Source of the DNA: a virus
Lineage: Duplodnaviria > Heunggongvirae > Uroviricota > Caudoviricetes
Strand: one strand, 5' to 3'
Length of the DNA stretch: 64,000 nt
IMG/VR virus record: IMGVR_UViG_3300027692_000003
Each line of letters opens with the position of its first letter. Position 1 is the first letter of the stretch. The position numbers were made by a program, and so were the translations under genes. The notes under the pieces are model-generated. The model ran no database searches and had not been told where the DNA came from. It was given only the letters and a program-made list of their open reading frames with translations. This document shows positions 3,319-60,497 of the stretch, in pieces.

Positions 3319-3588
3319 ATGACGACACTGATCGAGGATGTGGAAGTCCCGGCCGGGCACGGCATGATGAGCACCCTCAAACCGGAGCACGGCGACCTGC
3401 GGGTCATGTGGGACCCCGACGTCGACGACGAGGTCGAAGCCGCCAGGGCACAGTTCAACGAGCTCCGGGCAAAGGGATACCTCGCCTACAGGGCGCAGGG
3501 CAGGCGCGGTTCCCGCGGGGAGGTCATCCGCGAGTTCGACCCCGATGCGGAACGGATCATCCTGGTCCGCCAGAACGTCGGCGGCTGA
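3319..3588 (+). CDS. hypothetical protein
   Basis: ORF MTTLIEDVEVPAGHG...; balanced charged composition, unlike wrong-frame Arg-rich artefacts. Confidence 0.45.
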   Translation: MTTLIEDVEVPAGHGMMSTLKPEHGDLRVMWDPDVDDEVEAARAQFNELRAKGYLAYRAQGRRGSRGEVIREFDPDAERIILVRQNVGG

Positions 3589-7589: not shown

Positions 7590-8645
7590 GTGACCGGAAT
7601 CGAGATCTGCCGGCCCGTCCCGGGCGGAGACGACGCGCGGCCATCGGCCGAACGGCTCGTGCTCAGCTGGCTGGCCACCAAGAGATCCGCGAACACCCGG
7701 TTCGGCTACGGCGCCGATCTCGGCGTGCGGCTCCTGCGTCCCGGCGCGGCCACCATCGGCGAACCACGCCCCGCCCGCGCACCGGACTGGCTCAGCTACT
7801 GCCGGATGGCCGGCGTCGATCCGCTCGGCGCGGTACTCGAGGAGCATGCCGCGGTCTGGATCCGCGGCATGGAAGCGGCCGGGCTCTCCCCGGCCACCGT
7901 CGCACGCAAGCTGTCAGCAGTGTCGTCCTGGTATGCATGGCTGAAGAGAAAAGGCCACGTCGCTGCCAACCCAGCCGAGGACCTGCCCCGGCCCTACGTC
8001 AACCCGGACATCTCCACGACTCCCGGCCTGACAAGGGATCAGGCACTCGCGATGCTCGCGGCCGCCGATGATGCGCCCTGGCCGCAGTCCGCCCGCAACG
8101 CCGCGCTGACGGCGCTCCTCCTGTTCACGGGGGCGCGGGTCAGCGAGGCCTGCGGCGCCGCCCTGGCCGACCTCGGGATGGACCGCGGCCACCGGGTGCT
8201 GTGGGTCACCCGCAAGGGCACTGAAGGCAGGCAGGCACTCGGGCTCCCGGCACCGGCGACCATGCGGCTGGACGCCTACACTGCCGGACGCGCCGACCTC
8301 GAGCGGCTGCCCGCCATCGCCGGGACCCGGGGACGTGACCGGCCGCTGATCGCCACATCCACCGGGAAGCCGATGCGGCCGGCCGACGTGTGGGAACTCA
8401 TGCGGCGCCTGGGCCGCGCCGCGAAGCTGCCCCCGGAACTGGTCGCGAGGATGGGCTCCCACTCAATGCGGCACAGCTTCGCCACCCTCTACCTTGACGC
8501 CGGCGGGAACCTGCGGGACCTGCAGGACGCCATGGGCCACAAGGACCCGCGGACGACACGCCGGTACGACCGGTCGCGGGGCGCCCTTGACCGCTCGCCG
8601 GGCTACAGGCTCGCTGAGTACCTCTCGGACGGAGACCGGGCATGA
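7590..8645 (+). CDS. int: tyrosine site-specific recombinase / phage integrase (Xer-like)
   Basis: C-terminal catalytic motifs ...GARVSEA..., HSMRHSFATLYLDAGGNLRDLQDAMGHKDPRTTRRYDRS (R..H..R..Y). GTG start. Confidence 0.85.
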   Translation: MTGIEICRPVPGGDDARPSAERLVLSWLATKRSANTRFGYGADLGVRLLRPGAATIGEPRPARAPDWLSYCRMAGVDPLGAVLEEHAAVWIRGMEAAGLSPATVARKLSAVSSWYAWLKRKGHVAANPAEDLPRPYVNPDISTTPGLTRDQALAMLAAADDAPWPQSARNAALTALLLFTGARVSEACGAALADLGMDRGHRVLWVTRKGTEGRQALGLPAPATMRLDAYTAGRADLERLPAIAGTRGRDRPLIATSTGKPMRPADVWELMRRLGRAAKLPPELVARMGSHSMRHSFATLYLDAGGNLRDLQDAMGHKDPRTTRRYDRSRGALDRSPGYRLAEYLSDGDRA

Positions 8646-23278: not shown

Positions 23279-24913
23279 TCAGTCCTGGTCCTGGTCCTGC
23301 TCCGTACTGGCGGGGCCCGGTTTCCCGGTCCAGAGGATCTTCACGGAGTTCCTGACCGGGTTGTGCTTGGTATGTCCCGGGAAGAGCTCGATCTTCTGCG
23401 TGAGGATCCTGATGATGGCCCGCTTCTGGAGGACCGTCAGTGCATCCCACGCTGCCCGGACCCTGGGCTCGGGTCCGCCGAGCGGCATGTTCCGCAGGAC
23501 CGGGGAGATCGCGAGGCGGCGCCCCTTGCTGCGGAGCCGGCCGATGTCGGCCTCGAGGGTTTTCTCCAGCTGCGCGAGGACCCGCAGGCTCGGGGTGCCT
23601 GTCAGGGCATGGCTGTCGGTGGCTTCCCGCAGCCGCTGCTCTTTCTCCTCTGCCTCCGCGAAGTACTGCTCGGCATTGCGGCGCCGGTCCTGGCTGCTGG
23701 CGAGCGCCCGGAGGATGTCGGGGTTGGTGAGCCGGACGATGACTGACTCGGTGACGTACTCGTCAACCAGGGGCATGCGCCGGGCGGCGTGGCCCTTCGG
23801 GCAGTAGTAGTGGAAGAGCCCTGATCCCCTGGCCGTCTCGTTTCCCTGGACAGGCTTCGCGCAGATACCGCACTGGATGATGTAGGAGGCGAGGTAGCGG
23901 ACGTTCCCGTCGCGCCGCTTGCCCCTGGACCGTTCGGCGAGGACGCCGCGGGCCTGGGCTGCGAGGGCCTGGCTGAGGACCGGCGGCCAGATCGCCGTCG
24001 CGACGACCTGGCCGCGGTGCACCCGCTCCCCTGTGTAGGTGGGCCGCTTGATCATCAGGATCAGGGTCTGCCAACGCCAGTGCGTGCCCGCGACGATCTC
24101 CTCGAGCGCGGCTCTCTTCGCCGGGTCGGCCGTGGCGTTCAGCCGGCGCGCCGCCGCGGCTGCCCTGGGTGACAGGATCCCGCGGCGGTCGAGGTCGTCG
24201 CATATCTGCTGGAGCGGCTCGTGCAGGGAGACCCGCCGGGCTGCTTCCCGGATTACCTGGGCTTCTTCCTCGATGATGCGGACCTCGAGGAGTTCTCGGT
24301 CCGGGCCGTACACCCTCTCGTAGGCGTACACGCCGGGGCCGTGGGGACGGCCGGACTGCGCGTTGGCGCGCATGTCCCGCCGGACACGCTTGCTGGTCTC
24401 GTCGGAGGATTTCTCGTTGTGCATGCCTTCCATGAGGAGGGCCTGCCGGTCGGCGATGTTGTCCGGGTCATACAGGCGCTCGGCGCCGCTGTCGTAGAGG
24501 AGTGTTCCCGTGTCGCGGCACAGGTCCAGGAAGTGCGTCCAGGAGGCCATGGTCCGGTCACCGCGGGAGGTCTCGTGCATGACGAGGACCCGGGCGGGCC
24601 GCTGCGGGGAGTCCTCCCTGAGGACGGGGGTGCCTTCGAGTACCTCGATGAGCTCGTCCCAGTCGGGGCGGCGCCGGGTCGCGAAGCGGGACGCCGAGAT
24701 GTCGTCGTCGCTCCATTTCCGCTCGACCGGCCAGCCGTGGTCGGTGCAGGCCCGTACGTTGGCCCGGTCCTGCTGGACGATCGACCCGACTTTGTCCTTG
24801 CCGCGTTTCCTGCTCCTGCTGGCATCGCTGAGGCGGGTGTAGAGCCACGCGGGCAGGGGCCCGCGATCTGGAGGGAGAAGTGCCAGCGCGGGCAGCATGG
24901 TGCTATGGTACAT
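23279..24913 (-). CDS. large serine recombinase (serine integrase)
   Basis: N-terminal resolvase domain (YTRLSDASRSRKRG...SIVQQDRANVRACTDHGW), recombinase domain, and zinc-ribbon Cys cluster (CGICAKP...YYCPKGH). 544 aa. Confidence 0.85.
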   Translation of the reverse strand: MYHSTMLPALALLPPDRGPLPAWLYTRLSDASRSRKRGKDKVGSIVQQDRANVRACTDHGWPVERKWSDDDISASRFATRRRPDWDELIEVLEGTPVLREDSPQRPARVLVMHETSRGDRTMASWTHFLDLCRDTGTLLYDSGAERLYDPDNIADRQALLMEGMHNEKSSDETSKRVRRDMRANAQSGRPHGPGVYAYERVYGPDRELLEVRIIEEEAQVIREAARRVSLHEPLQQICDDLDRRGILSPRAAAAARRLNATADPAKRAALEEIVAGTHWRWQTLILMIKRPTYTGERVHRGQVVATAIWPPVLSQALAAQARGVLAERSRGKRRDGNVRYLASYIIQCGICAKPVQGNETARGSGLFHYYCPKGHAARRMPLVDEYVTESVIVRLTNPDILRALASSQDRRRNAEQYFAEAEEKEQRLREATDSHALTGTPSLRVLAQLEKTLEADIGRLRSKGRRLAISPVLRNMPLGGPEPRVRAAWDALTVLQKRAIIRILTQKIELFPGHTKHNPVRNSVKILWTGKPGPASTEQDQDQD

Positions 24914-25943: not shown

Positions 25944-26552
25944 CACCTGGCTGTTACAGCAGGGCAGGAACCGGCCCAGGAACCTGGCCGGCGGTCATCC
26001 CGTGAGCGTGAGGGGCACGGATGACCGCCGGCCAGCCCGTTTCCCCAGGACATTCACGGAAGGCAAGGACAGGCAGTTGGCTGCTACCGCACTCGAGAGG
26101 CGCCCGGCGGCGGGCGGATGGCGGCAGGCGCGGGCTGGACTGCGCGGCCGTCACGCCGCCGCCCTCCCCGTTCCCCGCGTCGCCGCGGTGACCGGCCGCC
26201 GGTCCGGGCCGCAGGTCAGCGAAGCCTACGCGTCCGCTGCCCTCCTCGCCGCCCTCCGCGGACGCCGGCACCTCGCCGCCGCATCCGTGCAGTGCATGAC
26301 ACCCGAAGACATCGCCGCGTTCCGGACGGCCGCCCGGTACCTCGTCGAGCTGGGCGCCGCCCGGCTCCGGGACCTCGACCCGGCTGCTGTCCCCCCAGGG
26401 TTCACGGCCTGCTGGACCTGCCTCACCACCCCGGCCGGAACCGCGTGCACCAGCCCGTCCTGCCGCGAGGGCGCGTAGCGGATGCGGCCGGACCGGCCCC
26501 TGTCACCGGAGCCCCCCCCCGCTGCCTCCTCGGTAATGAGGAAGGGACCGCT

Positions 26553-27353
26553 GTGGGCAGGGCCATGATCGGCACGATCAGGACCGGTGCACGAAAGTCC
26601 CGGACCCTGGGGGATATCGCGGGCCTCGCCGGCTCCATCGCGGTGGACGGGCAGCGGCACCCGGTCACGGTCAGCCCGGCGGGCCAGCTCATCACCGGTG
26701 CCCGGCGCCTGGCCGCCCGCGAGCACCTCGGCTGGGTCACGGTCCCGGCCCGGGTGATCACGACCTTCCAGGAAGCTGTCGACGCACTGAACGCCGAGCG
26801 TGCCGACGGCCGGCACGCGAAGCCGATGACCGTCGCTGAGATCATCGACCTGGAATCGGTGATGGCCGCGGAACTGGAATGGTGGCCCAGGCAGCAGCCA
26901 GGGAACGGTGACCGGATCCGCGGGAACGAGCGCCGTGCGGCGGTGGCGGCCGCGCTCGGGGTCAGCACCACGGTGTACCGGGACGGGAAGAGGATCGCCG
27001 CTGCTGCCCGCGGCGAGGCGTACGGCAGGACACCGGAACTGGTCACCCCCCGGGCCCGGCAGGCAGCAGCGGACGCGATGGCCGCGATCCGGGCCGGGAT
27101 ACCGGTCCCGGAGGCATACCGGCAGTTCACTGCGGCAGCATGGCCGGCGGCGGCGCCCCGGCCGAACCCGAGGCAGCGGCAGGCCGTCGCATCCGCTGTC
27201 GGCGCCCTCGCCGGGATCGCCGGCGCCCTGGCCAGTACCGGGCCGCTCGACCCGTCGATCAGCCCTGACGTCATCGCCGGCTGGGACACGTCCCTGACTG
27301 AGGCGATGGGACAGCTCCGGACGTTCCGGACGACACTGAGGAAGGCACCCTGA
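26553..27353 (+). CDS. ParB-like N-terminal (ParB/Srx) domain protein (GTG start, GAGGAAGGG RBS)
   Basis: TLGDIAGLAGSIAVDGQRHPVTVSPAGQLITGARRLAAREHLGWVTVPARVI (GxxRxxA motif). The 145-codon upstream extension of the track ORF is Arg/Pro-rich artefact. Confidence 0.6.
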   Translation: MGRAMIGTIRTGARKSRTLGDIAGLAGSIAVDGQRHPVTVSPAGQLITGARRLAAREHLGWVTVPARVITTFQEAVDALNAERADGRHAKPMTVAEIIDLESVMAAELEWWPRQQPGNGDRIRGNERRAAVAAALGVSTTVYRDGKRIAAAARGEAYGRTPELVTPRARQAAADAMAAIRAGIPVPEAYRQFTAAAWPAAAPRPNPRQRQAVASAVGALAGIAGALASTGPLDPSISPDVIAGWDTSLTEAMGQLRTFRTTLRKAP

Positions 27354-28210
27354 TGGCTGGAACGAGAGTTAAGACAGCACCTGAACCCGCCGCCCGGTCG
27401 GGCACCGCCGTGATCGAGATGATCCCGGTACGGGAGCTCGGGACCGACCCGGCGGTCAACACCCGCCCGGTCGACGAGAAATGGGTCACCGACCGTGTCC
27501 CCGTCTACACCCCGGCCGGGGTCGGCACCCTCACGGTGTCCCGCCGCGACGACGGCGAGCTCATCATCCTGGACGGGCAGCACCGCGCCGAGCTGATGCG
27601 GAATGCCGTCGGCATACAGGCGGTCGCCCAGTGCGAGGTGTACCAGGGGCTGGCCCTCAGCCAGGAAGCCGCGATCTTCCGTCTCCTGAACGACAAGCGT
27701 GCCCTGACCCCGCTGCACCGGTTCCTGGCCCTCATCACCGAAGGTGACCCGTCGGCCAGGGATGTCGCGGAGATCGCCGGCCTGTGCGGCTGGACCATCG
27801 CCGACAACACCCGCAACGGCACCCTCCGCTGCATCGGAGCCGTCCAGAAGATCCACCAGCAGGACAAGAACAGGAAGACCGGCGCCGACCCGGTGGCGCT
27901 CGCGCGGACCCTCCGCTGCATCACCGAGACGTGGGGCACCCGCGGTGACTCAGGATCGGCGTTCATCGTCGCCGGGATCGGCGGCGTCTTCGTGCAGTAC
28001 GAGGCGGCGGTCAAGCCTGAGATCATGACCGACCACCTCAAGACCGCGTACACCGACGCGACGGCACTGATCGCCCACGCCAGGGGCCTGGTCCAGTACG
28101 ACCGCGGCTCGATCGCGAACAGCGTCTCCAAGCTGGCGGTCAGGACATACAACAAGCGGCTGCAGTCCCGTAAGATCCCAGGCTGGCGCGGAGACGCCTT
28201 CAACGACTGA
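27353..28210 (+). CDS. DGQHR-motif (DndB-like / ParB-nuclease superfamily) protein, start overlaps the upstream stop (TGATG)
   Basis: IEMIPVRELGTDPAVNTRPVDEKWVTDRVP...LTVSRRDDGELIILDGQHRAELM. Confidence 0.6.
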   Translation: MAGTRVKTAPEPAARSGTAVIEMIPVRELGTDPAVNTRPVDEKWVTDRVPVYTPAGVGTLTVSRRDDGELIILDGQHRAELMRNAVGIQAVAQCEVYQGLALSQEAAIFRLLNDKRALTPLHRFLALITEGDPSARDVAEIAGLCGWTIADNTRNGTLRCIGAVQKIHQQDKNRKTGADPVALARTLRCITETWGTRGDSGSAFIVAGIGGVFVQYEAAVKPEIMTDHLKTAYTDATALIAHARGLVQYDRGSIANSVSKLAVRTYNKRLQSRKIPGWRGDAFND

Positions 28211-28557: not shown

Positions 28558-28687
28558 CCCGGACTCGCGACGCCACGCCGGGATCGGTGCTATGCGTGCA
28601 GGCCGGTTGCCGGTAGCGGCGCCCGGGTTACGCTGTGCGGCATGCTGCTGGTGAGGGACCTGCGTACTGGCGCGGCACCATAGGAAA

Positions 28688-28828
28688 CAGTGCCGTGTCC
28701 GCGGTGCCGGCATGGTCCGGGCACAGCCGCCCCCCCTTTTTCCCTGCGCGAGCCCCGCAGGACGCAGGGGGCAGCGGCACCCCCGTCCCCGTCGTACCGT
28801 GCCGGCACCGGGGACACGGCACATCCCG
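28688..28828 (+). ncRNA. structured RNA candidate: 23-bp near-perfect long-range inverted repeat enclosing ~90 nt with an internal C7T5 tract and a CCCTGCG/CGCAGGG hairpin (Y RNA-like Ro-binding stem candidate)
   Basis: GTGCCGTGTCCGCGGTGCCGGCA (~28691) pairs with TGCCGGCACCGGGGACACGGCAC (~28803). No ORF with coding character. Lies upstream of rsr. Confidence 0.35.
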
Positions 28829-28984
28829 GGCGGGGTCGAAGGCGACTGCTTACCTGCTGGAACCGGGAAGCCTGGGGTGCTGGGCCCGTCCCGGGGGAGC
28901 GCGATCCCCCGGGACGCTCAGCCTCGCAGGGCACCGGTTAGATACCGCAGCCGCCGGCACTGCTTATCCGCCCGGACCCAGGCG

Positions 28985-29115
28985 GCATGACCCTGGCGGG
29001 TCGAAGATGTCCGGTTACCACTGTTAATGGAGAGGTCGCAGGTTCGAGACCTGCCGGCCGGGGCAACCCGGCCGTAGCTCAGCTGGCAGAGCACTTAAAC
29101 CCCGGACGTCACACC
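28985..29115 (+). ncRNA. tRNA-like structured RNA module 1 (YrlA-type Y RNA candidate) with permuted order T-arm / closed acceptor-like hairpin / D-arm
   Basis: CCACTGTTAATGG is an anticodon-arm-like hairpin. GCAGGTTCGAGACCTGC is a T-arm-like hairpin with a TTCGAGA loop. CGGCCGGG-GCAA-CCCGGCCG is an 8-bp stem with a GNRA tetraloop. TAGCTCAGCTGGCAGAGCA is a D-arm. A flanking CCGGTTA/TTAAACCCCGG stem is possible. Confidence 0.4.
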
Positions 29116-29169
29116 CTTTATCCGCCGGGGCCTCGCCGGCCCCGTATTCCCGTCCCGACCTTTGTGTGC

Positions 29170-29280
29170 GGCCCCTGGCGGGTCGAACGAGTCCCGGTTA
29201 TCACAAGTTCGATTCTTGTAGGCCCCACCCCTTTGCGGGGCCTTCGCTCAGTGGCAGAGCATCCGGTCCTCACCTCACTC
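29170..29280 (+). ncRNA. tRNA-like structured RNA module 2 (tandem paralogue of module 1)
   Basis: Shares CCCTGGCGGGTCGAA-N4-TCCCGGTTA with module 1. ACAAGTTCGATTCTTGT is a T-arm. GGCCCC...GGGGCC is a hairpin. TTCGCTCAGTGGCAGAGCA is a D-arm. The TTATCCGCC(N)GG(R)CC motif recurs at ~28964, ~29118 and ~29279. Confidence 0.4.
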
Positions 29281-29347
29281 ATCCGCCAGGACCCCCGTCA
29301 CCGCCCCGTGTCCAGTTCAGGTCGCCCGTACCCCGGAAGGCGCAGCC

Positions 29348-31033
29348 ATGCCCCGTGATCCCCTGGCCTCCGTCACCACCCTCGCCACCCCGCAGAACCA
29401 GCCCGTCCCCGGCCGTGCTGACCAGGTACGGGATAACGCCGGCGGGTACGTGTTCGCGAAAGACCTGTGGACCAGGCTCGAGGATTTCCTGATCCTCGGC
29501 ACGGCCGGCGGGACGCATTATCTCGGTGAGGACAAGCTGACTGCTGACAACGCCGACGTGGTGTTCGAGGCGATCCGGGAGGACGGGCCGCGTGCCGTCA
29601 CCCTCCTCACGGACATCTCAGCATCGAGACCGCCCAGGGCACCGAAGAACCGGGGGTGCCTGTTCACGCTCGCCGCCGCGTCCGCGTCCGGCAACCCCGC
29701 TACGGTGCAGGCCGTCAAGGCGGCGGTACCCCTGGTCGCCCGGACCACCGGTCATCTCGCTGCCCTGTACGGGTACCGGAAGCAGTTCAAGGCGGCGGCG
29801 ACCCCCCGCGGGTACTCGTCGGTGGAGGGGCGGGCGTGGCGGTCCGCGCTTGCCGGCTGGTTCCTGACCGGGGACCCGGACTCGGTGGCGTGGCGGGCAT
29901 GCAAGGCGAAGTCGCGGAAGACTCCCGCCGGGGAGGACATGGCGCTGCGGGACATCATCCGCCTCGCCCACCCCAGGCCGGCCACTGCGGAGCAGGCGGC
30001 GCTGCTGGGGTGGCTGACCGGGAAGACCAGCGACGAGCAGGCCGCCGCGCTGCTGCCCGCCGTCGACGCGTACCTGACCGCCCGCGCCGTCACCACCGAG
30101 ACTGAGGCGGTCCGGGTGGTGACGGACCGGCGGGTCCCGTGGGAGTACCTGCCGTCGAAGTTCCAGGGATCGGCGGCAGTGTGGGAAGCACTCGCACCGG
30201 TCGCGGGGGTAACGGCGCTGCTGCGGAACCTGGCCCGCATGACCAGGATCGGCACCATCGCCCCGTTCGCCGCCGCCAATGTGGAGGTGGCACGGCGGCT
30301 CACCGACCCGCAGGTGCTGAGGCAGGGCCGGATACACCCGATGGACGTGTTCCTCGCCCTGCGGGTCTACCAGTCGGGCCGGTCCCAGCCGAACCCTGAC
30401 GAGCCGCCCAGCACGTGGCAGCCCGTCGCGGACATCTCCGACGCACTGGAGGAGGCGTACAGCCTGTCGTTCGGGCATACCGAGCCATCCGGGCGGCGGC
30501 TCCTGGTCGCCGTGGACTCGTCCGGGTCCATGACCGGGAAGGTGTACCGGAACGGCCCGGTAGTGCACCCGGTCACGTTCGGCGGATCGCCGATCGGCAC
30601 CCCGTATGAGGTGGCGTGCGCGGTCGCAGTCCAGATGAAGCGGATCGAGGGCGGCAACGTCCATGTCATCGACGTCGACGGCGCCGCGCACCCGTCGAAG
30701 GTGACCGCCCGGACGACCCTGCGGGAAATCAGCTCGTGGAAACCCAGCGGGGACCGCACGGACCTGTCCCTCCCGTTCATGTACGCGGCCCAGTATGACC
30801 TGAGGGTCGACGGGTTCCTGATCCTGTCCGACATGGAGACCTGGGCCGGGGGGCAGCACCCTTTCCAGGCCCTGTCCGCTTACCGGGCCCGGTACAACCC
30901 GCACGCGAGGGTGGTCGCCGCGGCGATCACTCCGGCGGGTCACGCCATCGGCGAGCCCGGCGACACGGGTGTGCTGAACATTGCCGGGATGGACTCCTCG
31001 CTGCCGCAGGTCATCGCCGGGTTCCTCCGGTGA
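29348..31033 (+). CDS. rsr: Ro60 orthologue (TROVE domain + C-terminal vWA with MIDAS)
   Basis: GGYVFAKDLWTRLEDFLILGTAGGTHYLGEDKLTADNADVVFEAIREDGPRAVTLL aligns with human Ro60 [52 protein letters not shown]. C-terminal LLVAVDSSGSMTG is a MIDAS DxSxS motif. GGAAGG RBS. Confidence 0.85.
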   Translation: MPRDPLASVTTLATPQNQPVPGRADQVRDNAGGYVFAKDLWTRLEDFLILGTAGGTHYLGEDKLTADNADVVFEAIREDGPRAVTLLTDISASRPPRAPKNRGCLFTLAAASASGNPATVQAVKAAVPLVARTTGHLAALYGYRKQFKAAATPRGYSSVEGRAWRSALAGWFLTGDPDSVAWRACKAKSRKTPAGEDMALRDIIRLAHPRPATAEQAALLGWLTGKTSDEQAAALLPAVDAYLTARAVTTETEAVRVVTDRRVPWEYLPSKFQGSAAVWEALAPVAGVTALLRNLARMTRIGTIAPFAAANVEVARRLTDPQVLRQGRIHPMDVFLALRVYQSGRSQPNPDEPPSTWQPVADISDALEEAYSLSFGHTEPSGRRLLVAVDSSGSMTGKVYRNGPVVHPVTFGGSPIGTPYEVACAVAVQMKRIEGGNVHVIDVDGAAHPSKVTARTTLREISSWKPSGDRTDLSLPFMYAAQYDLRVDGFLILSDMETWAGGQHPFQALSAYRARYNPHARVVAAAITPAGHAIGEPGDTGVLNIAGMDSSLPQVIAGFLR

Positions 31034-31478: not shown

Positions 31479-31559
31479 CCCGGGACACACCAGGGCACAG
31501 CCGCCGGCCCGGCTGCCGTGCCAGTCACGCCCACCCGGAAAAGGGGAAGAGGGAACTCG

Positions 31560-32525
31560 ATGGGATGGTTTATCTTCGCGGTCCTGCTCGCCATCATCGG
31601 CGCGCTCGCGCTGGCTGGCGGCGGCCTGGCGAAAGGCGAGTATAAGCGCGCCTACGGCGGGAAGCCGGAGCCGTGGGACTGGTCACTGCCAGTCCGGGCC
31701 GCCGGCGGCTTCGTGCTTCTGCTCTCGTTCGGCCTGTTCGCGGTGTCGGGCCTGAAGTCGGTCCCGGTGAAGAACATCGGCGTCCCGCAGGTATTCGGTG
31801 CGGTGACCGGCACCGTGCAGGGGCCCGGGATCCACGAGACGTGGACGCCGTGGCTGCACCTGACCGACGTGGACGAGACCGTCCAGACCACGACGTTCGA
31901 GGACTCCGGTAACGACACCGGGTCATCATGCAACGGCGGCCTCGCAGTCCGGATCGGCGGCCAGCAGACCGCGTGTGCCGACGTGACGATCCAGTGGCAG
32001 ATCCTGCCGGCAGCCGCGGACTCCCTGTTCAGCGACTACGCCAACCAGGGCAACCTGATGACCGAGATCACCAATGCCGTGGTGCTGCGCGAGTTCAAGA
32101 CCGTCGTCAACCAGGTCGTGGGTGACTACAACCCGATCACCGACGTGGAGTCCGTCGCGAATACGAACTCGGCGACCAGCGTGTTCTCCACGTTCGCGCC
32201 GACAATCCAGGCGGACATGACCCGTGACATCGGGTCCCGGATCAGGATCATCAGTGTTCAGCTGCCGCTGATGCATTACGACGCCACGGTGGAAGCCGCA
32301 CTGCAGTCGATCGCGAAGGAGAACGCGAGCTACGCCGTCGCTGTCGAGGAAGTGAAAGTCGACCAGGAGCAGGCCCTGGCCTACCGGCAGCTCGGCACAC
32401 CGTCCGAGAGCGCCCTGATCAGCGAGTGCCTCTCCGACGTGAAAGCAGCAGGCAGCAGCTGGCCGGTCAACGTCCAGTGCTTCCCGGGTGCCAGCTCAGG
32501 TGTGGCACTCTCCCAGGGAGGGTGA
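31560..32525 (+). CDS. membrane-anchored SPFH/band-7-like protein
   Basis: N-terminal TM MGWFIFAVLLAIIGALALAGGG, then a prohibitin/stomatin-like region (IQWQILPAAADSLFSDYANQGNLMTEITNAVVLREFKTVV...AALQSIAKENASYAVAVEEVKVDQEQALAYRQLG). Confidence 0.5.
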   Translation: MGWFIFAVLLAIIGALALAGGGLAKGEYKRAYGGKPEPWDWSLPVRAAGGFVLLLSFGLFAVSGLKSVPVKNIGVPQVFGAVTGTVQGPGIHETWTPWLHLTDVDETVQTTTFEDSGNDTGSSCNGGLAVRIGGQQTACADVTIQWQILPAAADSLFSDYANQGNLMTEITNAVVLREFKTVVNQVVGDYNPITDVESVANTNSATSVFSTFAPTIQADMTRDIGSRIRIISVQLPLMHYDATVEAALQSIAKENASYAVAVEEVKVDQEQALAYRQLGTPSESALISECLSDVKAAGSSWPVNVQCFPGASSGVALSQGG

Positions 32526-36788: not shown

Positions 36789-37085
36789 TCAGCTGGCGTC
36801 GCCGTCCAGGAGCAGCCCGGCGATCCGGGCCGCCTCCGCCACGGCGGCCTCGGCTTCGGTGACGAGCTCGCTGACCGTCCCGCCCGCGGCGGGGTCAGCC
36901 TGCTTCGCGAGGGCGGCGACCAGGGTCGCGAGCCGGGTCAGGACAGGTGCCTGGGCGACGGCTGCCTGCAGTGCCTTCCGGGTGTCCGCTTCGACGGCCT
37001 CGATGCGGGGGCCGGCGTCTTTCTCGAACCAGGCCCTGATCCGGGCGGCGAGTCCTTCAGGGAGCGGGGTGACAGGTGCGGTCAC
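36789..37085 (-). CDS. hypothetical helical protein
   Basis: ORF MTAPVTPLPEGLAARIRAWFEKDAGPRIEAVEADTRKALQAAVAQAPVLTRLATLVAALAKQ... Confidence 0.4.
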   Translation of the reverse strand: MTAPVTPLPEGLAARIRAWFEKDAGPRIEAVEADTRKALQAAVAQAPVLTRLATLVAALAKQADPAAGGTVSELVTEAEAAVAEAARIAGLLLDGDAS

Positions 37086-51041: not shown

Positions 51042-54000
51042 CTAGTACTGCCGGCCGGGCATCTGGTAACCCGTCCCGAGGTTGTTCGCGGCCCTGTCCA
51101 GGGCGTGAGCCTGGACGACGCTGCTCAGGACCTGGCCGTCCACGACGAGATGGGTCGTGGTCTGGTGGACCACCGGGGCCGCGCCGCCGCCGCCGCCGCT
51201 GCCGCCGCCGGACGATCCCGCCGCGGCGGGGTGCGGGACAGCGCTCGCGGGATGCTGGTCCGCGGCGGCGGGGACTGCGCTGGAGATACCGTCCGCTGAG
51301 GAGCCGTCACCGCCCTTGGTCCTCTTCTTCGCGGCGTCCTTCTCCGCTGTCTCGATCGCGGCGAGGATGGCCGAGGTGAGGTCACCGGTCACGGAGGCGA
51401 TGCCTGCCGCCATCTCCTGGCCTATCTCGGCACCGCCCTTGAATGCGGCGGCTGCAGCACCGCCGCCTAGCGCCGCGTCCAGGTCGTGGGTGATGTCCTT
51501 CGACAGGGAGCCGATCGACGAGTTGACCGCCCCGAGCTGGCTTTTCAGCCCGGCTGCGAGGCCCTTGGTGATGTCGGCGGCCGGCTCGTAGACGGCGTTG
51601 CTCGCTGTGACCCCGAGCGCTTTCGCTGCCGTGTTCATCTGCGACTGGAGGCTGTTGAGCTGCTGGATCGCGCCCTTCCCGCCGCCGAGGATGCTCTCGG
51701 CGATCGGGTCGCCTGTCGCCGCGCCGGACTGCGCGAGCTGGTCCAGGAAGGCGGTGTTGAGGCCCTCTTTCTTCAGCTTGGTCAGGTCGGCAGTGAACTG
51801 CTTGGTCTGCGTGACCTGGGCCTGCATCCCGGAGATCAGGTCGCTGACCTGCGGCGCGGCTACCGCCGCTGGTGCGTTGCCGGACTCCAGCGCCTGAGCG
51901 TTCGCCGCGACGCTGATGATGCTGGCGCCCTGGTTCGTCGCTGCCGTGATGCTCTGCGCGTAGGACTGCGCCTGCGTGATCTGGTTTTCCAGGGTCTGCC
52001 GCTGCTGGGCGAGGGCCTGCAGCTTCGCGCCGTCAGCCTTGAGGTAGGCGACCATGCCCGAGTCCTCGGACTTGCTGATCTTGCCTTTCTTCAGCGCCTT
52101 CGCGATATCGGCCTCGAACGTCGAGATGGTCCCGGCGATCGTGGAGTCGCTGAACGGCGCGGCGATCCCCTCCGCGAGATCCTTCGCGGTGGTGATCGCG
52201 GACTGGCCGCCCTGGAGGCCGGCGAGCAGCGACGCGGCGGCGGTCTTGGACAGCCCCTCTGCCGCCTTCTTCACCGTGCCCTCGCCGGCGGTAATGCCCT
52301 CGGCGAAACCGCCGTCGAACTCGTCCTGCCCGATCGCCATCGTGACCCGGCTAGGCGAATGCGCGTCGAGGGTCGTGTGCATCGCCTCGGCCCCGGCAGC
52401 CGCCACGGCGCTCGCTGCCGCCGTGACCGCACCGACTCCGCCCGCGATACCGCCCGCCAGTCCGGCGTCCATGGACGCGCCGATGCCGGCGGTGCCTGCC
52501 GCACCGGACTTCATCGCGCCGAGGACACTGGCCATGGCGGTCGCGGCCTTGGCCTTCGCCGCAGACAGGGCACTCAGGTCGGGTGCGGGGACCTTGACCG
52601 GGGCCATCGCGGACCCGGTGCCGAGCGTGCCAAGGGCGTGCTTGATGGTCTCGCTGATGGAGTTCGCGGAGGCCGGGTCGACCTCGGGCTTGACCTTGAC
52701 CTGCACGGTCTGGTCAGCGGCGGGCAGCTTCATGCCGGTCTTGAGCATGTCCCCGGCCCAGCCGCCAGTCACGGGTGCCACCGCCGGCGCAGCCTCCGGC
52801 GCGGGAGCGGCAGGCTTGCCGCCGCCGAACCCGAAGAACGACGCGATCGAATCGACGGCCGAGGCCGCCTGGTGCCGGGAGGAATCGAGACCGGATGTCA
52901 CCCAGTCGGCATTGCCCTTGAAGCTATTGGCGAGGGCGTCACCCTGGCTTGCCATCTGGTGCCGGGCCGAGTCGAAGCTGCCGGTCTGGTAGTCCCCGGC
53001 GCGCGTGAAGGCCCCGACGGTCTCGCTGACCGCGTTGCTGACGTGGGTTCCGACAGCGGAGCCGAACTTGGAGGTCGCGAACCAGGAGTCGAGGCCGCCG
53101 AAGATGCTGGGCATCATCCCGGCTGCGGCCGGGTCGTTCTGGAGGTCCTTGTTCGCGGTCCCGGCCTTGGTCCCGGCGGGGGAAAGCTGATCCCCGAGGC
53201 CCTTGATCAGGAGGCCGAGGCCGACCCCCGCGGCGAGAGGGTTGACTGAGGCAGCCAGGTCGGTGCCGCCGCGCAGGCCAGCGGCGGCGAGGACCCCGCC
53301 GCCGCCCTTTTCTGCGTCCCCTTCGATACCGGACTCAGCGTCCGAAGCGACAGGTCCGGCGGGGATGGTCCCGCCCGGTTCCCTGCTGGACGGCAGCGTG
53401 CCAGGGAGTGTCTTGTCAGTGTTGCCGAGATCGCCGCCTTCGGCGGCGGTGGAGAGTTTCCCTGCTGCGCCTTCAAGGCTTCCGGCGGCGGCGCTGAGGC
53501 TCGACCCGGCACTTTCCAGGCCCGCCGCACCGGCCGTGCTGGAGCCCTGCCCGATCCCGGCGAGTTTGTCGGCGCCGGGGATGCCGAGGGTCTCCCCGAC
53601 TTTCCCGGCAGAGCTGAGTACCGTGCTGATCGGCGAGGCGACCTTGGACAGGATGGCCGGCAGCGCGAGGAGTCCCGCGCCGATCATGACGTCCTTGGTC
53701 GCGGTGGGATGTGCTGCGGCGAAGCCGAGGACGTCGGAGACACCGCCGAGCACCTTGGTTACAGAGGGGAGGAGTGCCTGCCCGGCCTCGGTCGCTACCG
53801 CCTCAAGGCTGTACTCGGTGGCCTTGAGCTTGTAGTTAAGGGTGTCCTGGACCTGGGACCAGCCCTTGATGTTGTTCCCGGTGTGCTGGACGGACTGGCC
53901 GACCGCGTCCACGTCGCTCTTGAACGTGCCCAGGTGCGAGCCGCCGGTCATCAGGGCGAACTGCTCGCCCATCTTCCCGCCGAGCGCCTCGGACAGGGCA

Positions 54001-55865
54001 GCGGTGACCGTCTGCTTGTCGCCGGCACCGGACTTCTCCAGCGCCGAGTAGCCTTTCGCCGTGTTCGCCGTGTTCGCGAACTGCTTCAGCAGGTTCACGT
54101 CGCCTACGGGCAGGGTGGACTTCGTGCCGGTCAGCGCATACCACTGCGCCTCGGTCGTCTTCCCCGTCAGGTAGCCCGTCGCTACCTGCTGGAGGCCGGC
54201 CGGGAGCTTTGCTATCTCCTGGTTCGCGGCCTGGATGGCCAGCTTCGACTGGTTCATCGTGTCGAGGACGACCATGCCGTTTTTCTCATGGCCCTTGATC
54301 GCCGAGTCGACCTCGGAGACGACGCCAGTCAGGCCCTGCGTCTTCAGCGAGTCGGACAGCTTGTTCGGGTTGATCCCGAGCATCTGCTGCTCAGCCCGCT
54401 GTACGCCGCTCGGCCCGGTGATCGCCCCGACGGTGTGCGAGATGTCCTGCGCCGACCATTCCGCGGTTGCGCCCCCGGCGGTCATGGTGGCCATCGCCCC
54501 GAGTACCTGCGGCAGTGACAGCCCGGCATTCTGCGCGGTGGGCAGCACGGAGGGGAGGGCGCCCGCGAACCCCTGGTAGGTCATCCTGCCGAGGCCGACC
54601 GCCGTGAGGCTCGCGTTCGCCGCCTCGGTCGCGTACTTCGCCTGCTGCGCCGCCGACTTCTGGGGGCCGCCGAAGTAGTCGTTCAGCAGTGTCGTCTCGG
54701 CGGCACTGGCTGTCGAGACGTCCGCGCCTTCGGCGAACGCGGCCTCAGCGGTCGGCTTCAGGACCGCTGCCGCGTTCGCGCCGTGGAATCCGGCGCTCTG
54801 CGTCCAGTACTCGCCCTGCTCAAGGCTGGCCTGGGACGTGGCGGCAGGCCCGGACATTCCCAGCAGTGCCGATTCATCGCCCGGCACGTTCTTCAGGGAC
54901 TCGCCTGCTGAGGTGTACCAGCGGGTACCCGCTGACTGCAGCTGCGCCGCCAGGTAGGTCCCGTACCCGACTGCCCCCGCGACGCCGAGGGCGAGCATGT
55001 GATACTTCCCGGCGGACGCCTCAGCCGATGCGGCAGCATCCTCGGTGGCGAGCTTCCGCGCCCTGATCCCCTGCGCTACCGCCGCGTCCTGCTCGACGCT
55101 GGTCGTGCCGAGCGCCGCGTAGGAGTCCGCGGCGACCCCGTTGGCTTTCGCGATCCCCAGGGTCGCCTCAGCCTGCCCGGCCGCGTAGATCCTGTTCTGG
55201 TCCGCGGTGATAGCCGCGGTGTCCCGCATCCATGCCAGGGACTCCGCGGTTTCCTTGGTGACGGCACCCTGGGCCTTCAGTGCATCGCTGGCTGCTGCTG
55301 CTGACCCGGCGACCGTGGCGTTGGTTTCCGCGACTGCCTTGCCCGCGTCGGCGAGATCACCCTGGGTCGCTGCCGTGTCTGCGGAGGCGACCCCCAGTCC
55401 CCTGATGCCGGCGGCGGCAGGGTCAGCGGACCCGGCGATCGCGTCGTTGCTGTCGGCGACTGCCTTCCCTGCGTCGGCTACCCCCGCCAGGCCGTCCCGT
55501 GCCCCGGCGGCAGTATCGGCGACGCCTCTCAGCTCGTCCGCTACGGCCCCGGCCCCGGCTGCAGCTTCCCCGAGGCCCTTGCCCGCATCCCCGACCGCGC
55601 TGAGGCTCTCAGCTGCTGAGGCGCCGGCACCATCGAGACGCCCCAGGGAGGCGAGGATGGAGGACACGGCCGAGTCGACGGCTCCGGCCGCAGACTCCAT
55701 GGAGGCAGCGAGTCCGCCGAGGCCGCCCGTCTCAATGGGCTTGCCGAGTGCCTCCAGTGCCGCGTCGGCCTCTACCGCAAGATTGCGGTAGGCGGCGGCG
55801 AGGTCCTGGATCTCGCCGACAGCACCGCCGGCGGAAACGGTGATGGTGGTGGAGATGTCGCCCAT
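51042..55865 (-). CDS. tape measure protein (1607 aa, Ala-rich)
   Basis: Length, Ala/Gly-rich helical composition, and position downstream of the chaperone-like genes and upstream of distal tail genes. Confidence 0.7.
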   Translation of the reverse strand: MGDISTTITVSAGGAVGEIQDLAAAYRNLAVEADAALEALGKPIETGGLGGLAASMESAAGAVDSAVSSILASLGRLDGAGASAAESLSAVGDAGKGLGEAAAGAGAVADELRGVADTAAGARDGLAGVADAGKAVADSNDAIAGSADPAAAGIRGLGVASADTAATQGDLADAGKAVAETNATVAGSAAAASDALKAQGAVTKETAESLAWMRDTAAITADQNRIYAAGQAEATLGIAKANGVAADSYAALGTTSVEQDAAVAQGIRARKLATEDAAASAEASAGKYHMLALGVAGAVGYGTYLAAQLQSAGTRWYTSAGESLKNVPGDESALLGMSGPAATSQASLEQGEYWTQSAGFHGANAAAVLKPTAEAAFAEGADVSTASAAETTLLNDYFGGPQKSAAQQAKYATEAANASLTAVGLGRMTYQGFAGALPSVLPTAQNAGLSLPQVLGAMATMTAGGATAEWSAQDISHTVGAITGPSGVQRAEQQMLGINPNKLSDSLKTQGLTGVVSEVDSAIKGHEKNGMVVLDTMNQSKLAIQAANQEIAKLPAGLQQVATGYLTGKTTEAQWYALTGTKSTLPVGDVNLLKQFANTANTAKGYSALEKSGAGDKQTVTAALSEALGGKMGEQFALMTGGSHLGTFKSDVDAVGQSVQHTGNNIKGWSQVQDTLNYKLKATEYSLEAVATEAGQALLPSVTKVLGGVSDVLGFAAAHPTATKDVMIGAGLLALPAILSKVASPISTVLSSAGKVGETLGIPGADKLAGIGQGSSTAGAAGLESAGSSLSAAAGSLEGAAGKLSTAAEGGDLGNTDKTLPGTLPSSREPGGTIPAGPVASDAESGIEGDAEKGGGGVLAAAGLRGGTDLAASVNPLAAGVGLGLLIKGLGDQLSPAGTKAGTANKDLQNDPAAAGMMPSIFGGLDSWFATSKFGSAVGTHVSNAVSETVGAFTRAGDYQTGSFDSARHQMASQGDALANSFKGNADWVTSGLDSSRHQAASAVDSIASFFGFGGGKPAAPAPEAAPAVAPVTGGWAGDMLKTGMKLPAADQTVQVKVKPEVDPASANSISETIKHALGTLGTGSAMAPVKVPAPDLSALSAAKAKAATAMASVLGAMKSGAAGTAGIGASMDAGLAGGIAGGVGAVTAAASAVAAAGAEAMHTTLDAHSPSRVTMAIGQDEFDGGFAEGITAGEGTVKKAAEGLSKTAAASLLAGLQGGQSAITTAKDLAEGIAAPFSDSTIAGTISTFEADIAKALKKGKISKSEDSGMVAYLKADGAKLQALAQQRQTLENQITQAQSYAQSITAATNQGASIISVAANAQALESGNAPAAVAAPQVSDLISGMQAQVTQTKQFTADLTKLKKEGLNTAFLDQLAQSGAATGDPIAESILGGGKGAIQQLNSLQSQMNTAAKALGVTASNAVYEPAADITKGLAAGLKSQLGAVNSSIGSLSKDITHDLDAALGGGAAAAAFKGGAEIGQEMAAGIASVTGDLTSAILAAIETAEKDAAKKRTKGGDGSSADGISSAVPAAADQHPASAVPHPAAAGSSGGGSGGGGGAAPVVHQTTTHLVVDGQVLSSVVQAHALDRAANNLGTGYQMPGRQY

Positions 55866-58928: not shown

Positions 58929-59350
58929 GCGGTGAGCAGGACCCTGCCGCGTGGCTGCGACAGCAGATCGAGGCCGACGCCGGCTGGACGGCCCCCCCGC
59001 CGCAACGGCTGCAGCAGGCGCTCAGCAGGGGCGAGCTGAGCATCAATGACGTGCGCTGGGTTCCGTTCTCATCCGCGCTGATGGCCGCTGACCGTGAGGC
59101 GAAGCTGGCCATCCTGGGCGAGCTGGCCGCCGCGAAGGCGAGACGTGATGCCGAGCGGGACGACTATTCCCGGTGGATTGCCGGCGAGACCCGGGGGGAG
59201 CGGCCCCGGTTCCCCGGACCTGCGCCTGAGGTCATCGCGGGACTGGAACGTGCGGTCTGCCTGCTCGCCACGGGGTACCGGCATCGTGAGGGGTACGCGG
59301 AACACTGGGGCACCACGGACATCAGTAACTCTGGTTCCAGTAGTTACTGA
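58925..59350 (+). CDS. hypothetical protein (GTG start overlapping the upstream stop)
   Basis: ORF VSGEQDPAAWLRQQIEADAGWTAPPPQRLQQALSRGELSINDVRWVPFSSALMAADREAKLAILGELAAAKARRDAERDDYSRWIAG... Confidence 0.4.
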   Translation: MSGEQDPAAWLRQQIEADAGWTAPPPQRLQQALSRGELSINDVRWVPFSSALMAADREAKLAILGELAAAKARRDAERDDYSRWIAGETRGERPRFPGPAPEVIAGLERAVCLLATGYRHREGYAEHWGTTDISNSGSSSY

Positions 59351-60497
59351 GGATCACGCTGCTGACCCCGTACTCGCTGGAGTCCGTCAGGTTCGCGATG
59401 CCGGACAGCCTGTACTCGGCGGTGACGTAATCCTCTTCGAGGCTCACGCTGCCCTGCGTCCACCCGGACCGGGAGAGGGTGACTGTGATCGAGCAGCCGC
59501 CTTGCAGGGCCGGCTGGGCGAGCGTCCACACCGCCGGCTCCTGGATCGCCTCCCGGTACAGGTTCAGGTCCGCCGCCGTGTCGAAGATGGCCTTGTATGA
59601 CCCTGCGGTCCGCAGCGGCCCGGCGCCGATGAACAGGGGGGCCTGCTGGCCGTTGCAGCACGGGAAGATGCCGAGCTCGCGTGTCAGGGGCAGGTCAAGG
59701 GAGATGCCCCGGGCCGAGGTGCCGCCTGCGGTGGTGATGCCCCATCCCCATCCGGCGGGAGGCTGGGCGGCGGTCTGCTCCTCCGCGGACGTCGCGACGG
59801 CGACGGGCGGCATGCCGTTCCAGGTGGAGACGAGCCGGGCGTACCCGCTCTGCTGGACCTGGAGGCGGACGCTGCCGAGGATGCAGCCGGGCCAGCCGAG
59901 CTGATCCACCCCGTCATCCGTAGTCAGCGAGTACGACGGCCAGATCGTCGGAGGGCCGTAGACACGGTCCTGCTGGAACAGGTGGGTGGCCTGGGACTGC
60001 GCGGGGTCGCCTTCGCCGTGGCCGTACAGCAGGGCAGTCGTGAGCGGGACGAGGTAAGGCCCGGTCCCGGCCGGGGTTCCGGCCAGCGCGTACTCCAGCA
60101 TGGCGCCTGTGCCGAGCATCAGGACCGAACCGGCGGGAGGCGCCGCGGCGAGGCTGACAGCGTTCATCCCCGCTGATGCCTGCGCCGCGAACGTCGTCAC
60201 GGTACCGGCCGTGAACTGGTCAGTACCGATCATCGCCCGGTACAGCCACCCGGCCCAGTCCGGGTAAGCCTGGGTTGTTATCGTCCAGTCTGACCAGTAC
60301 GGGCCCTGCTGGATGTCCTGCGTATCAGTGTCGGTGCCCATCAGGGAACGGTCGGTGAGCTGGGTGATCGCGGACCGGTACCGGGTGCCGGTGCTGAACG
60401 GGACAGTGAACGAGGGGGCAACGTAGACGGCGTCCGAGGATTCGGCGGCGATGCCGAGCCTGGCGGTGGCGGACAGGACCGAGTACGTCACCGGCAC
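59322..60497 (-). CDS. phage structural protein (391 aa)
   Basis: ORF MPVTYSVLSATARLGIAAESSDAVYVAPSFTVPFSTGTRYRSAITQLTDRSLMGTDTDTQDIQQGPYWSDWTITTQAY... Confidence 0.5.
   Translation of the reverse strand: MPVTYSVLSATARLGIAAESSDAVYVAPSFTVPFSTGTRYRSAITQLTDRSLMGTDTDTQDIQQGPYWSDWTITTQAYPDWAGWLYRAMIGTDQFTAGTVTTFAAQASAGMNAVSLAAAPPAGSVLMLGTGAMLEYALAGTPAGTGPYLVPLTTALLYGHGEGDPAQSQATHLFQQDRVYGPPTIWPSYSLTTDDGVDQLGWPGCILGSVRLQVQQSGYARLVSTWNGMPPVAVATSAEEQTAAQPPAGWGWGITTAGGTSARGISLDLPLTRELGIFPCCNGQQAPLFIGAGPLRTAGSYKAIFDTAADLNLYREAIQEPAVWTLAQPALQGGCSITVTLSRSGWTQGSVSLEEDYVTAEYRLSGIANLTDSSEYGVSSVILSNYWNQSY

What the first reader, a model, noticed from the sequence alone, without database searches (positions are those of the whole stretch)
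28688..28828. 23-bp long-range inverted repeat enclosing ~90 nt with C7T5 and an inner hairpin: structured ncRNA candidate upstream of rsr
GTGCCGTGTCC-GCGG-TGCCGGCA pairs with its near-perfect complement 110 nt downstream. There is no coding potential. The architecture (long terminal stem with internal loops) resembles the Ro60-binding stem of Y RNAs, or could be a riboregulator.
Basis: partly seen in the sequence, partly recalled or inferred. Interest (0 to 1): 0.5.

Follow-up and report, generated by a model that had tools for sequence, protein, structure and literature searches.

The report
Divergent Y RNA hairpin upstream of rsr
The hairpin is real and is the first of four tandem Y-RNA-like modules in front of a phage-borne Ro60 (rsr) gene; it keeps the family's long closing stem but has lost the usual bacterial Ro-binding motif, so it is a modestly interesting odd variant of a known RNA class.

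Summary
Arms 28690-28719 and 28793-28822 form a 30-nt, 90% complementary inverted repeat. It is the best long-range one in the 64-kb window, and the RNA fold gives -95 kcal/mol (z = -7.4). The region is non-coding and ends 526 nt upstream of a TROVE/vWA Ro60 gene.

Three more Y-RNA modules lie between it and rsr, all with the canonical GGGUCGAAG...UAUCCGCC helix. Two of them are sub-threshold Rfam YrlA hits.

Relatives (Rsr 57-83% identical) carry comparable arrays. Where a short first module ('m1') exists, it sits 521-538 nt upstream of rsr in four-module arrays.

A covariance model was built from the five closest m1 modules, with the element excluded. It finds the element as the top window hit (29.8 bits on +, 19.2 on -, noise at or below 19.4). 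All 13 stem substitutions against the relative L034 preserve or improve pairing, and a G x G mismatch is conserved.

The family's invariant core (GGGUCGAA, CGGUUAUC, AUCCG) is absent. It is replaced by GGUCCGG, which matches 6 of 7 bases of the vertebrate GGUCCGA, plus a new C/U-rich rod. No orthologue of that apical part could be retrieved.

Verdict: a divergent Y RNA module. Rsr binding is plausible but untested.

The parts
28690..28822 (+). The element ('Y1'): a 133-nt rod-like hairpin and the first unit of the Y-RNA array
   Evidence: fold, z = -7.4. (R2 model: 29.8 bits on +, 19.2 on -). It ends 526 nt before the rsr ATG, the position of module 1 in four-module arrays of relatives (521-538 nt).
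28690..28719 (+). 5' arm of the closing stem. G28701 faces G28811 in a G x G mismatch.
   Evidence: the G x G mismatch is shared by 6 of 8 aligned modules.
28793..28822 (+). 3' arm of the closing stem
   Evidence: Its best short-BLAST hits in 260 kb of loci are the 3' strands of Y modules in L024, L025 and L027 (E 0.005-0.02).
28714..28720 (+). GGUCCGG at the top of the stem, in the place where relatives have GGGUCGAAG
   Evidence: Read from the sequence and the CM alignment. It matches 6 of 7 bases of the vertebrate GGUCCGA that Ro60 contacts (PMC4201824). It does not match GNCGAAN0-1G.
28730..28741 (+). C7U5 pyrimidine tract. Five of the C and the first U are predicted to pair with AGGGGG (28766-28771). 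UUUUC (28738-28742) forms an internal loop.
28743..28761 (+). Apical hairpin CCUGCG-C-G(AGCC)C-CGCAGG
   Evidence: The inner 87 nt alone are only weakly better than shuffles (z = -1.9).
28825..28980 (+). Y2: a non-tRNA-like Y module with GGGGUCGAAGG at the 5' end and UUAUCCGCCC at the 3' end
   Evidence: (repeats D2, D3)
28989..29132 (+). Y3: a YrlA-type module with a tRNA-like domain
   Evidence: Rfam YrlA 40.4 bits, E 3e-7, below the gathering score of 69..
29166..29298 (+). Y4: a YrlA-type module
   Evidence: YrlA 28 bits, E 1e-3. (R1 model 25.6 and 23.4 bits).
29348..31033 (+). rsr (Ro60 orthologue, 561 aa)
   Evidence: TROVE, vWA_Ro60..
28607..28634 (+). Weak candidate promoter TTGCCG-16 nt-TACGCT, about 55 nt upstream of the element
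   Evidence: Read from the sequence. The consensus scan found no promoter. Relatives have a conserved TANNNT 8-20 nt upstream of module 1. This part is inferred and weak.
31518..32525 (+). Band-7/SPFH gene downstream of rsr (context)
   Evidence: An Rsr/YrlA-Band-7 association is cited in bioRxiv 10.1101/312249.

Best explanation
The element is a divergent copy of the first, short, non-tRNA-like Y-RNA module ('m1') that heads tandem Y-RNA arrays upstream of rsr in some of the related actinobacterial and actinophage loci.

Proposed mechanism:
- It is made as RNA from the + strand, most likely as the 5'-most part of one precursor that also carries Y2, Y3, Y4 and perhaps rsr. This is inferred from the shared strand, the 2-30-nt spacers and the precedent of M. 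smegmatis and D. radiodurans.
- It is trimmed to the base of its roughly 30-bp closing stem (inferred).
- It acts as a Y RNA. Rsr docks on the top of the stem at GGUCCGG, and the new C/U-rich apical rod replaces the usual effector module (inferred, untested).

What is shown: the hairpin exists, it is non-coding, its stem is homologous to m1 stems, and that stem is kept by compensatory change. What is not shown: transcription, processing and Rsr binding.
For: (1) Context. rsr lies 526 nt downstream. Three canonical Y modules fill the gap.

(2) Relatives. 24 of the 28 other rsr loci scanned carry 1-4 modules with the GGUCGA/AUCC helix. The tRNA-like ones hit Rfam YrlA at 36-49 bits. About 16 loci begin with a short m1, whose structure covaries (20 of 31 pairs with double changes).

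(3) Stem homology. The R2 model, built from the five closest m1 modules without the element, scores the element at 29.8 bits (E about 5e-4). That is the top hit in the window, and the next unrelated hit scores 9.5. In 218 kb of other loci R2 finds only Y modules above 23 bits, with the highest unrelated hit at 19.4.

(4) Selection on pairing. Against L034 there are 13 substitutions in the two arms and none breaks a pair. Three pairs changed on both sides, and four wobble or mismatch positions became Watson-Crick. The G x G mismatch is conserved in 6 of 8 modules (87.5% of cells paired, 0 of 500 shuffles reach the covariation score). The G.U pair of the canonical helix is missing from both strands at once (CGGGU/AUCCG becomes UGGU/ACCG).

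(5) Strand. The + strand beats the - strand by 10.6 bits.

(6) Precedent. Chen et al. [quoted passage not shown]
Against: - The nucleotides invariant in 16 of 16 m1 modules (GGGUCGAA, CGGUUAUC, AUCCG), the first and last of which recur in nearly every other module found, are absent.
- The broader R1 model gives only 15.8 bits, from the stem alone. That is no better than an unrelated GC hairpin at 36800-36846 (15.0 bits).
- No Rfam family matches.
- The inner 87 nt are not significantly structured on their own (z = -1.9).
- No orthologue exists to test the inner part.
- No convincing promoter lies next to the element.
- Much of the 6-of-7 match to GGUCCGA is inherited from GGGUCGA, so it is weak evidence by itself.
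- Among about 30 loci, no other array contains a module of this kind.
Confidence: 0.5

Rival explanations
1. It is a structural relic used for processing or stability. A former m1 module has lost Rsr binding. Its long duplex is kept because it serves as a processing site for a double-strand-specific nuclease (for example RNase III), or as a protective 5' stem for the Y-RNA/rsr precursor.
For: The invariant core is lost while the stem is strictly maintained. A 26-bp duplex with a single mismatch is a textbook substrate for a double-strand-specific nuclease (general knowledge). The element is first in the array.
Against: The apical 87 nt still fold into a continuous rod rather than decaying. In relatives the same stem belongs to a module with a full Rsr-binding core, so the stem alone has no demonstrated separate role. 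GGUCCGG remains at the docking position.
Confidence: 0.27
2. It is a non-functional, decaying paralogue of a Y-RNA module with no role of its own.
For: The defining motifs are lost (one search compared). It is unique among about 30 loci. No orthologue is available.
Against: None of 13 arm substitutions breaks a pair, and a base pair was deleted from both strands together. That pattern is hard to get without selection on the helix. The fold z-score of -7.4 is the most extreme in the array.
Confidence: 0.12
3. It is a DNA-level palindrome, for example a parS-like or operator site for the two ParB-like genes just upstream, or a recombination site.
For: ParB_N-like and DUF6551/ParB-like genes end 480 nt upstream, and a serine recombinase is nearby. 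Each arm contains the 10-bp palindrome GTGCCGGCAC or a 9-of-10 version of it.
Against: Homologous stems in relatives change sequence while keeping pairing, including G.U pairs. That is an RNA signature, not a protein-binding DNA signature. The + strand scores 10.6 bits higher. Those relatives with the same stem whose called genes were inspected (L021, L024) sit in chromosomal contexts with no ParB-family hit. The arm does not recur elsewhere in the window.
Confidence: 0.05
4. It is an intrinsic terminator or attenuator for the upstream operon or for rsr.
For: It is a very stable GC-rich hairpin between two + strand gene blocks, with an internal T5 run.
Against: No U-tract follows the hairpin on either strand in the required position, and the terminator scan found none. 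The T5 lies inside the structure.
Confidence: 0.03

Closest known systems
Short non-tRNA-like bacterial Y RNAs (S. Typhimurium YrlB, M. smegmatis YrlB, D. radiodurans Yrn2; Chen et al. 2014, PMC4201824)
   Same: Encoded next to rsr on the same strand, in tandem with a tRNA-like Y RNA. Long hairpin closed by the 5' and 3' ends. Pyrimidine-rich tract in the distal part. Size about 130 nt.
   Different: S. Typhimurium YrlB carries GNCGAAN0-1G and this element does not. Its pyrimidine tract is mostly base-paired in the predicted fold rather than forming a small loop. No binding or expression data exist.
Module 1 of actinobacterial/actinophage rsr arrays (defined here: alignments A1 and A3, models R1 and R2)
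   Same: First position in the array. Ends 526 nt before rsr. Closing-stem sequence, G x G mismatch and pairing are shared.
   Different: Lacks GGGUCGAA, CGGUUAUC and AUCCG. One base pair of the Ro-type helix is deleted. The ~40-nt interior is replaced by a ~73-nt GC-rich rod.
YrlA (Rfam RF02553)
   Same: Same locus type and same array. Y3 and Y4 next to the element are YrlA-like.
   Different: No T-arm or D-arm and no YrlA hit at E <= 10. ARAGORN finds nothing.
Metazoan and Deinococcus Y RNAs (Rfam RF00019; Ro60-contacted GGUCCGA)
   Same: Long terminal stem containing GGUCCGG (6 of 7 bases) on the 5' strand, and a pyrimidine-rich distal region.
   Different: No Rfam Y_RNA hit. The 3'-strand partner and bulge geometry are not the metazoan ones. 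The similarity is largely explained by descent from GGGUCGA.

Membership tests
Bacterial Y RNA, YrlA subfamily (Chen et al. 2014; Rfam RF02553) | Encoded within ~4 kb of rsr on the same strand | tested here: met
   The element ends 526 nt upstream of rsr. The + strand is favoured by 10.6 bits.
Bacterial Y RNA, YrlA subfamily (Chen et al. 2014; Rfam RF02553) | GNCGAAN0-1G motif near the 5' end | tested here: not met
   The sequence at the homologous place is GUCCGGG. The motif is present in Y2, Y3 and Y4 (repeat D3).
Bacterial Y RNA, YrlA subfamily (Chen et al. 2014; Rfam RF02553) | tRNA-like domain (T-arm, D-arm) and Rfam score at or above gathering | tested here: not met
   No YrlA or tRNA hit overlaps 28690-28822 at E <= 10. 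ARAGORN finds none. The actinobacterial tRNA-like modules themselves reach only 28-49 bits against a gathering score of 69.
Y RNA in the broad sense (Ro60/Rsr-bound ncRNA) | Long stem formed by the 5' and 3' ends | tested here: met
   26 of 27 bp in the closing stem, extended to about 31 bp in the MFE structure.
Y RNA in the broad sense (Ro60/Rsr-bound ncRNA) | Ro60-binding sequence in that stem (GGUCCGA type or GNCGAA type) | tested here: inconclusive
   GGUCCGG matches 6 of 7 bases of the vertebrate motif, and GNCGAA is not matched. This is a sequence reading only (PMC4201824).
Y RNA in the broad sense (Ro60/Rsr-bound ncRNA) | Physically bound and stabilised by Ro60/Rsr | not testable with these tools
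   Needs immunoprecipitation, a gel-shift, or Northern blots in an rsr deletion strain.
Y RNA in the broad sense (Ro60/Rsr-bound ncRNA) | Match to Rfam Y_RNA (RF00019) | tested here: not met
   No hit at gathering or at E <= 10.
   R2 scores 29.8 bits, above the highest unrelated hit of 19.4 in 282 kb. The position matches. Compensatory changes are seen.
CGGUUAUC ... CCGG ... AUCCG | tested here: not met
   These are invariant in 16 of 16 modules and none is present in the element. R1 aligns the stem only.
Intrinsic terminator | GC-rich hairpin followed directly by a U-run | tested here: not met
   One search reports 0 sites. The sequence after the stem is ATCCCGGG.

The most novel reading that the evidence does not exclude
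A phage-encoded Y RNA of a new type. It would have kept only the closing stem of the actinobacterial Y-RNA scaffold, switched from the bacterial GNCGAA Rsr-recognition sequence to a vertebrate/Deinococcus-like GGUCCG, and acquired a new C/U-rich rod as effector arm. On this reading Rsr would be tethered to a partner other than the one served by the tRNA-like modules, or the RNA would act as a decoy for host Rsr during infection.
Probability: 0.18. Interest if true: 0.55.

Novelty: new variant of a known kind. Interest (0 to 1): 0.36.

Why it matters
Y RNAs beside rsr have been known in bacteria and phages since 2013-2014, so the locus type is not new. What this element adds is a natural experiment on what Rsr needs in order to recognise a Y RNA. 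It is a module whose scaffold stem is clearly under selection, yet the supposedly essential 5'-strand motif and the kink-region motif have been replaced.

If it still binds Rsr, the recognition rules for bacterial Ro60 are looser, or closer to the metazoan rules, than the GNCGAA consensus implies. It would also mean that phage Y-RNA arrays carry more effector arms than the tRNA-like one. If it does not bind, it shows that the long stems have a separate role in processing or stability within polycistronic Y-RNA precursors.

The comparison also shows that Rfam's YrlA gathering score misses the actinobacterial and phage modules tested here (28-49 bits against 69).

Tried and rejected
- Rfam at gathering and at E <= 10: nothing overlaps the element.
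- ARAGORN: no tRNA or tmRNA in the window.
- BLAST of the intergenic region against phage and plasmid collections: only the tRNA-like part of Y3 matches, in Mycobacterium prophages and Nonomuraea. Megablast of 24 kb around the locus gave no match.
- blastn of the element against 17 Streptosporangiaceae rsr loci: no homologue.
- Search for an orthologue of the apical part:
  - The closest Rsr relative (83%, L019) is cut 385 nt upstream of rsr.
  - Homologues of the upstream 109-aa ORF led only to the already known L020 contig and to L037, which has no rsr.
  - The 75% homologue of the ParB-like gene sits on a contig that ends 58 nt after that gene.
  - One further contig had no DNA on file.
- Viral-contig scans: Rsr peptides gave none. 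The exact 18-mer of the core gave none. The 15-mer of the 3' arm gave 119 or more chance matches in GC-rich coding DNA, and none of the 119 fetched passed a simple screen for a complementary 5' arm plus Y-RNA motifs; the one candidate read in full, L125, was coding-like repeats.
- The broad m1 model R1 does not separate the element from random GC hairpins, so the claim rests on the narrower R2 model.
- The promoter/terminator consensus scan was empty.
- The parS/operator and terminator readings were rejected for the reasons given under the rival explanations.

Full report
**Observation**

The reported inverted repeat is present as described. The 23-mer at 28690-28712 recurs as its reverse complement at 28800-28822 with one mismatch, and no such match occurs in 100 shuffles. 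The repeat finder extends the arms to 30 nt (28690-28719 / 28793-28822, 90% complementary). With seed 10, a minimum of 18 nt and a maximum of 250 nt apart, it is the best long-range inverted repeat in the 64-kb window.

The 133-nt RNA folds into a single rod of -95.2 kcal/mol, against a shuffle mean of -64.5 (z = -7.4). The C7T5 tract is at 28730-28741 and the inner hairpin at 28743-28761. The inner 87 nt alone are only marginally more stable than shuffles (z = -1.9).

The interval 28558-29347 has flat GC across codon phases, unlike the flanking genes. It is also free of gene calls in the public record. The ORF at 29348-31033 is a Ro60/Rsr orthologue (TROVE and vWA_Ro60 domains).

**Surroundings**

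The window is phage-like. It carries a tape-measure protein, a tail tube protein, a tyrosine integrase, a serine recombinase and two ParB-like genes. It comes from a 165-kb metagenome scaffold.

Three further Y-RNA modules lie between the element and rsr:
- Y2 (about 28825-28980) has GGGGUCGAAGG and UUAUCCGCCC.
- Y3 (28989-29132) hits Rfam YrlA at 40.4 bits.
- Y4 (29166-29298) hits Rfam YrlA at 28 bits.

Both YrlA scores are below the gathering score of 69. At gathering thresholds Rfam reports nothing in the window.

**Relatives**

I obtained 17 Streptosporangiaceae genome loci (Rsr 57-61% identical) and a dozen metagenome loci (55-83%). 24 of the 28 other loci scanned carry 1-4 tandem modules upstream of rsr with the helix ...GGGUCGAA / AUCCG..., closed by stems of 10 to 34 bp. 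Their tRNA-like modules score 36-49 bits on Rfam YrlA.

About 16 of the arrays start with a short module ('m1', 83-113 nt) that has no tRNA-like domain. Sixteen m1 sequences align with invariant GGGUCGAA, CGGUUAUC, CCGG and AUCCG. Their consensus structure has 20 of 31 pairs with compensatory changes. In four-module arrays m1 ends 521-538 nt before the rsr ATG. The element ends 526 nt before it.

**Is the element an m1?**

The closing stem says yes. The arms are 72-75% identical to those of L034 and L024. The best short-BLAST hits of the 3' arm in 260 kb of loci are the 3' strands of Y modules.

I built model R2 from the five closest m1 modules, leaving the element out. It scores the element at 29.8 bits (E about 5e-4). 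That is the top hit in the window, against 19.2 bits on the - strand and 9.5 bits for the next unrelated site. In 218 kb of other loci R2 finds only Y modules above 23 bits, and the highest unrelated hit is 19.4 bits.

Pairing is maintained:
- 87.5% of cells are paired across 8 sequences.
- Five pairs show double changes.
- 0 of 500 shuffles reach the covariation score.
- Against L034, none of the 13 arm substitutions breaks a pair.
- The G x G mismatch is shared by 6 of 8 modules.
- The G.U pair of the canonical helix is missing from both strands simultaneously.

The core says no. GGGUCGAAG is replaced by UGGUCCGGG, AUAUCCG by CGUACCG, and CGGUUAUC is absent. The ~40-nt interior is replaced by a ~73-nt GC-rich rod. 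The broad model R1 therefore aligns only the stem (15.8 bits), which is no better than an unrelated GC hairpin (15.0 bits).

**Literature**

Chen et al. 2014 (PMC4201824) define GNCGAAN0-1G as the conserved bacterial motif and note its resemblance to the GGUCCGA contacted by Xenopus Ro60. They report Y RNAs near rsr in more than 250 bacteria and 22 phages. They show processing of YrlA and YrlB from one precursor in M. smegmatis. [quoted passage not shown] The element's GGUCCGG therefore sits at the right place and matches 6 of 7 bases of the vertebrate motif. Most of that match is inherited from GGGUCGA.

**Interpretation**

The best-supported reading is a divergent Y-RNA module 1. It would be an RNA made from the + strand as part of the Y-RNA/rsr precursor, with a closing stem under selection, a non-canonical candidate Rsr site and a new C/U-rich apical arm. 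I give this 0.5.

The main rival (0.27) is that Rsr binding has been lost and the duplex persists as a processing or stability element. Pure decay (0.12) fits poorly with the perfectly compensated stem. A DNA palindrome for the neighbouring ParB-like proteins (0.05) is contradicted by the covariation, the G.U pairs, the strand asymmetry, and the same stem occurring in loci whose inspected gene calls show no ParB-family hit. A terminator (0.03) lacks a U-tract.

**Limits**

- There are no expression data.
- No orthologue of the apical part could be recovered, because assemblies of the closest relatives break inside or next to the array.
- The promoter is unclear. Relatives have a conserved TANNNT 8-20 nt upstream of m1. 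The window offers only TTGCCG-16-TACGCT at 28607-28634.

**Verdict**

This is a real, non-random, RNA-level structured element belonging to a known system (rsr with Y RNAs, here on a phage). It is an unusual variant rather than a regular member. Interest is moderate.

Noticed in passing
L001 3960-3985, L020 3955-3982, L026 1643-1668, L034 1178-1205 and others (15-35 nt before the rsr ATG); absent from window 29299-29347 and from L019: Twelve of the relatives noted carry a mini-hairpin ACAUCCGCC-N3-5-GGCGGGUCGAAC just upstream of the rsr start. The 3' and 5' strands of the Ro-type helix are joined in permuted order by a short loop. It looks like a possible Rsr autoregulatory site in the rsr 5' UTR.
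   Followed up: partly
window 28825-29298: Three more Y-RNA modules (Y2-Y4) lie between the element and rsr. Y2 is also atypical: it has no tRNA-like domain and has CUGCUUACC where relatives have CCGGUUAUC. Rfam's YrlA gathering score (69) misses all of them, and it also misses the tRNA-like modules in the 8 related loci scanned (28-49 bits).
   Followed up: partly
L001 ~3330-3345, L008 ~3330-3342, L013 ~3340-3352, L006, L010 (upstream of module 1): A conserved palindrome (G)TGTGACGCGTCAC lies about 10-12 nt upstream of the conserved TANNNT hexamer in several Streptosporangiaceae loci. It could be a -35 region or an operator of the Y-RNA/rsr promoter.
   Followed up: no
L036 129-2423: In one relative (Rsr 70%), rsr is preceded by 19 tandem tRNA genes instead of Y-RNA modules. 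Only the permuted mini-hairpin remains before the ATG.
   Followed up: no
window 7590-8645, 23279-24913, 26118-28210, 51042-55865, 59322-60497; 31518-32525: The locus rides on a phage-like element: tyrosine integrase, serine recombinase, two ParB-like genes, tape-measure protein and tail tube protein. A Band-7/SPFH gene follows rsr, and an Rsr/YrlA-Band-7 association is cited in bioRxiv 10.1101/312249. Relatives L019, L020 and L026 also have phage genes.
   Followed up: partly
L008 3961-4135, L004 3956-4127, L012 3961-4132 (reaching into the rsr coding region): The GGCGGGUCGAA of the mini-hairpin has a 12-13 of 15 complement about 130 nt inside the rsr ORF, near the codons for the conserved KDLW peptide. 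It could be chance or a long-range 5' UTR-to-CDS pairing.
   Followed up: no
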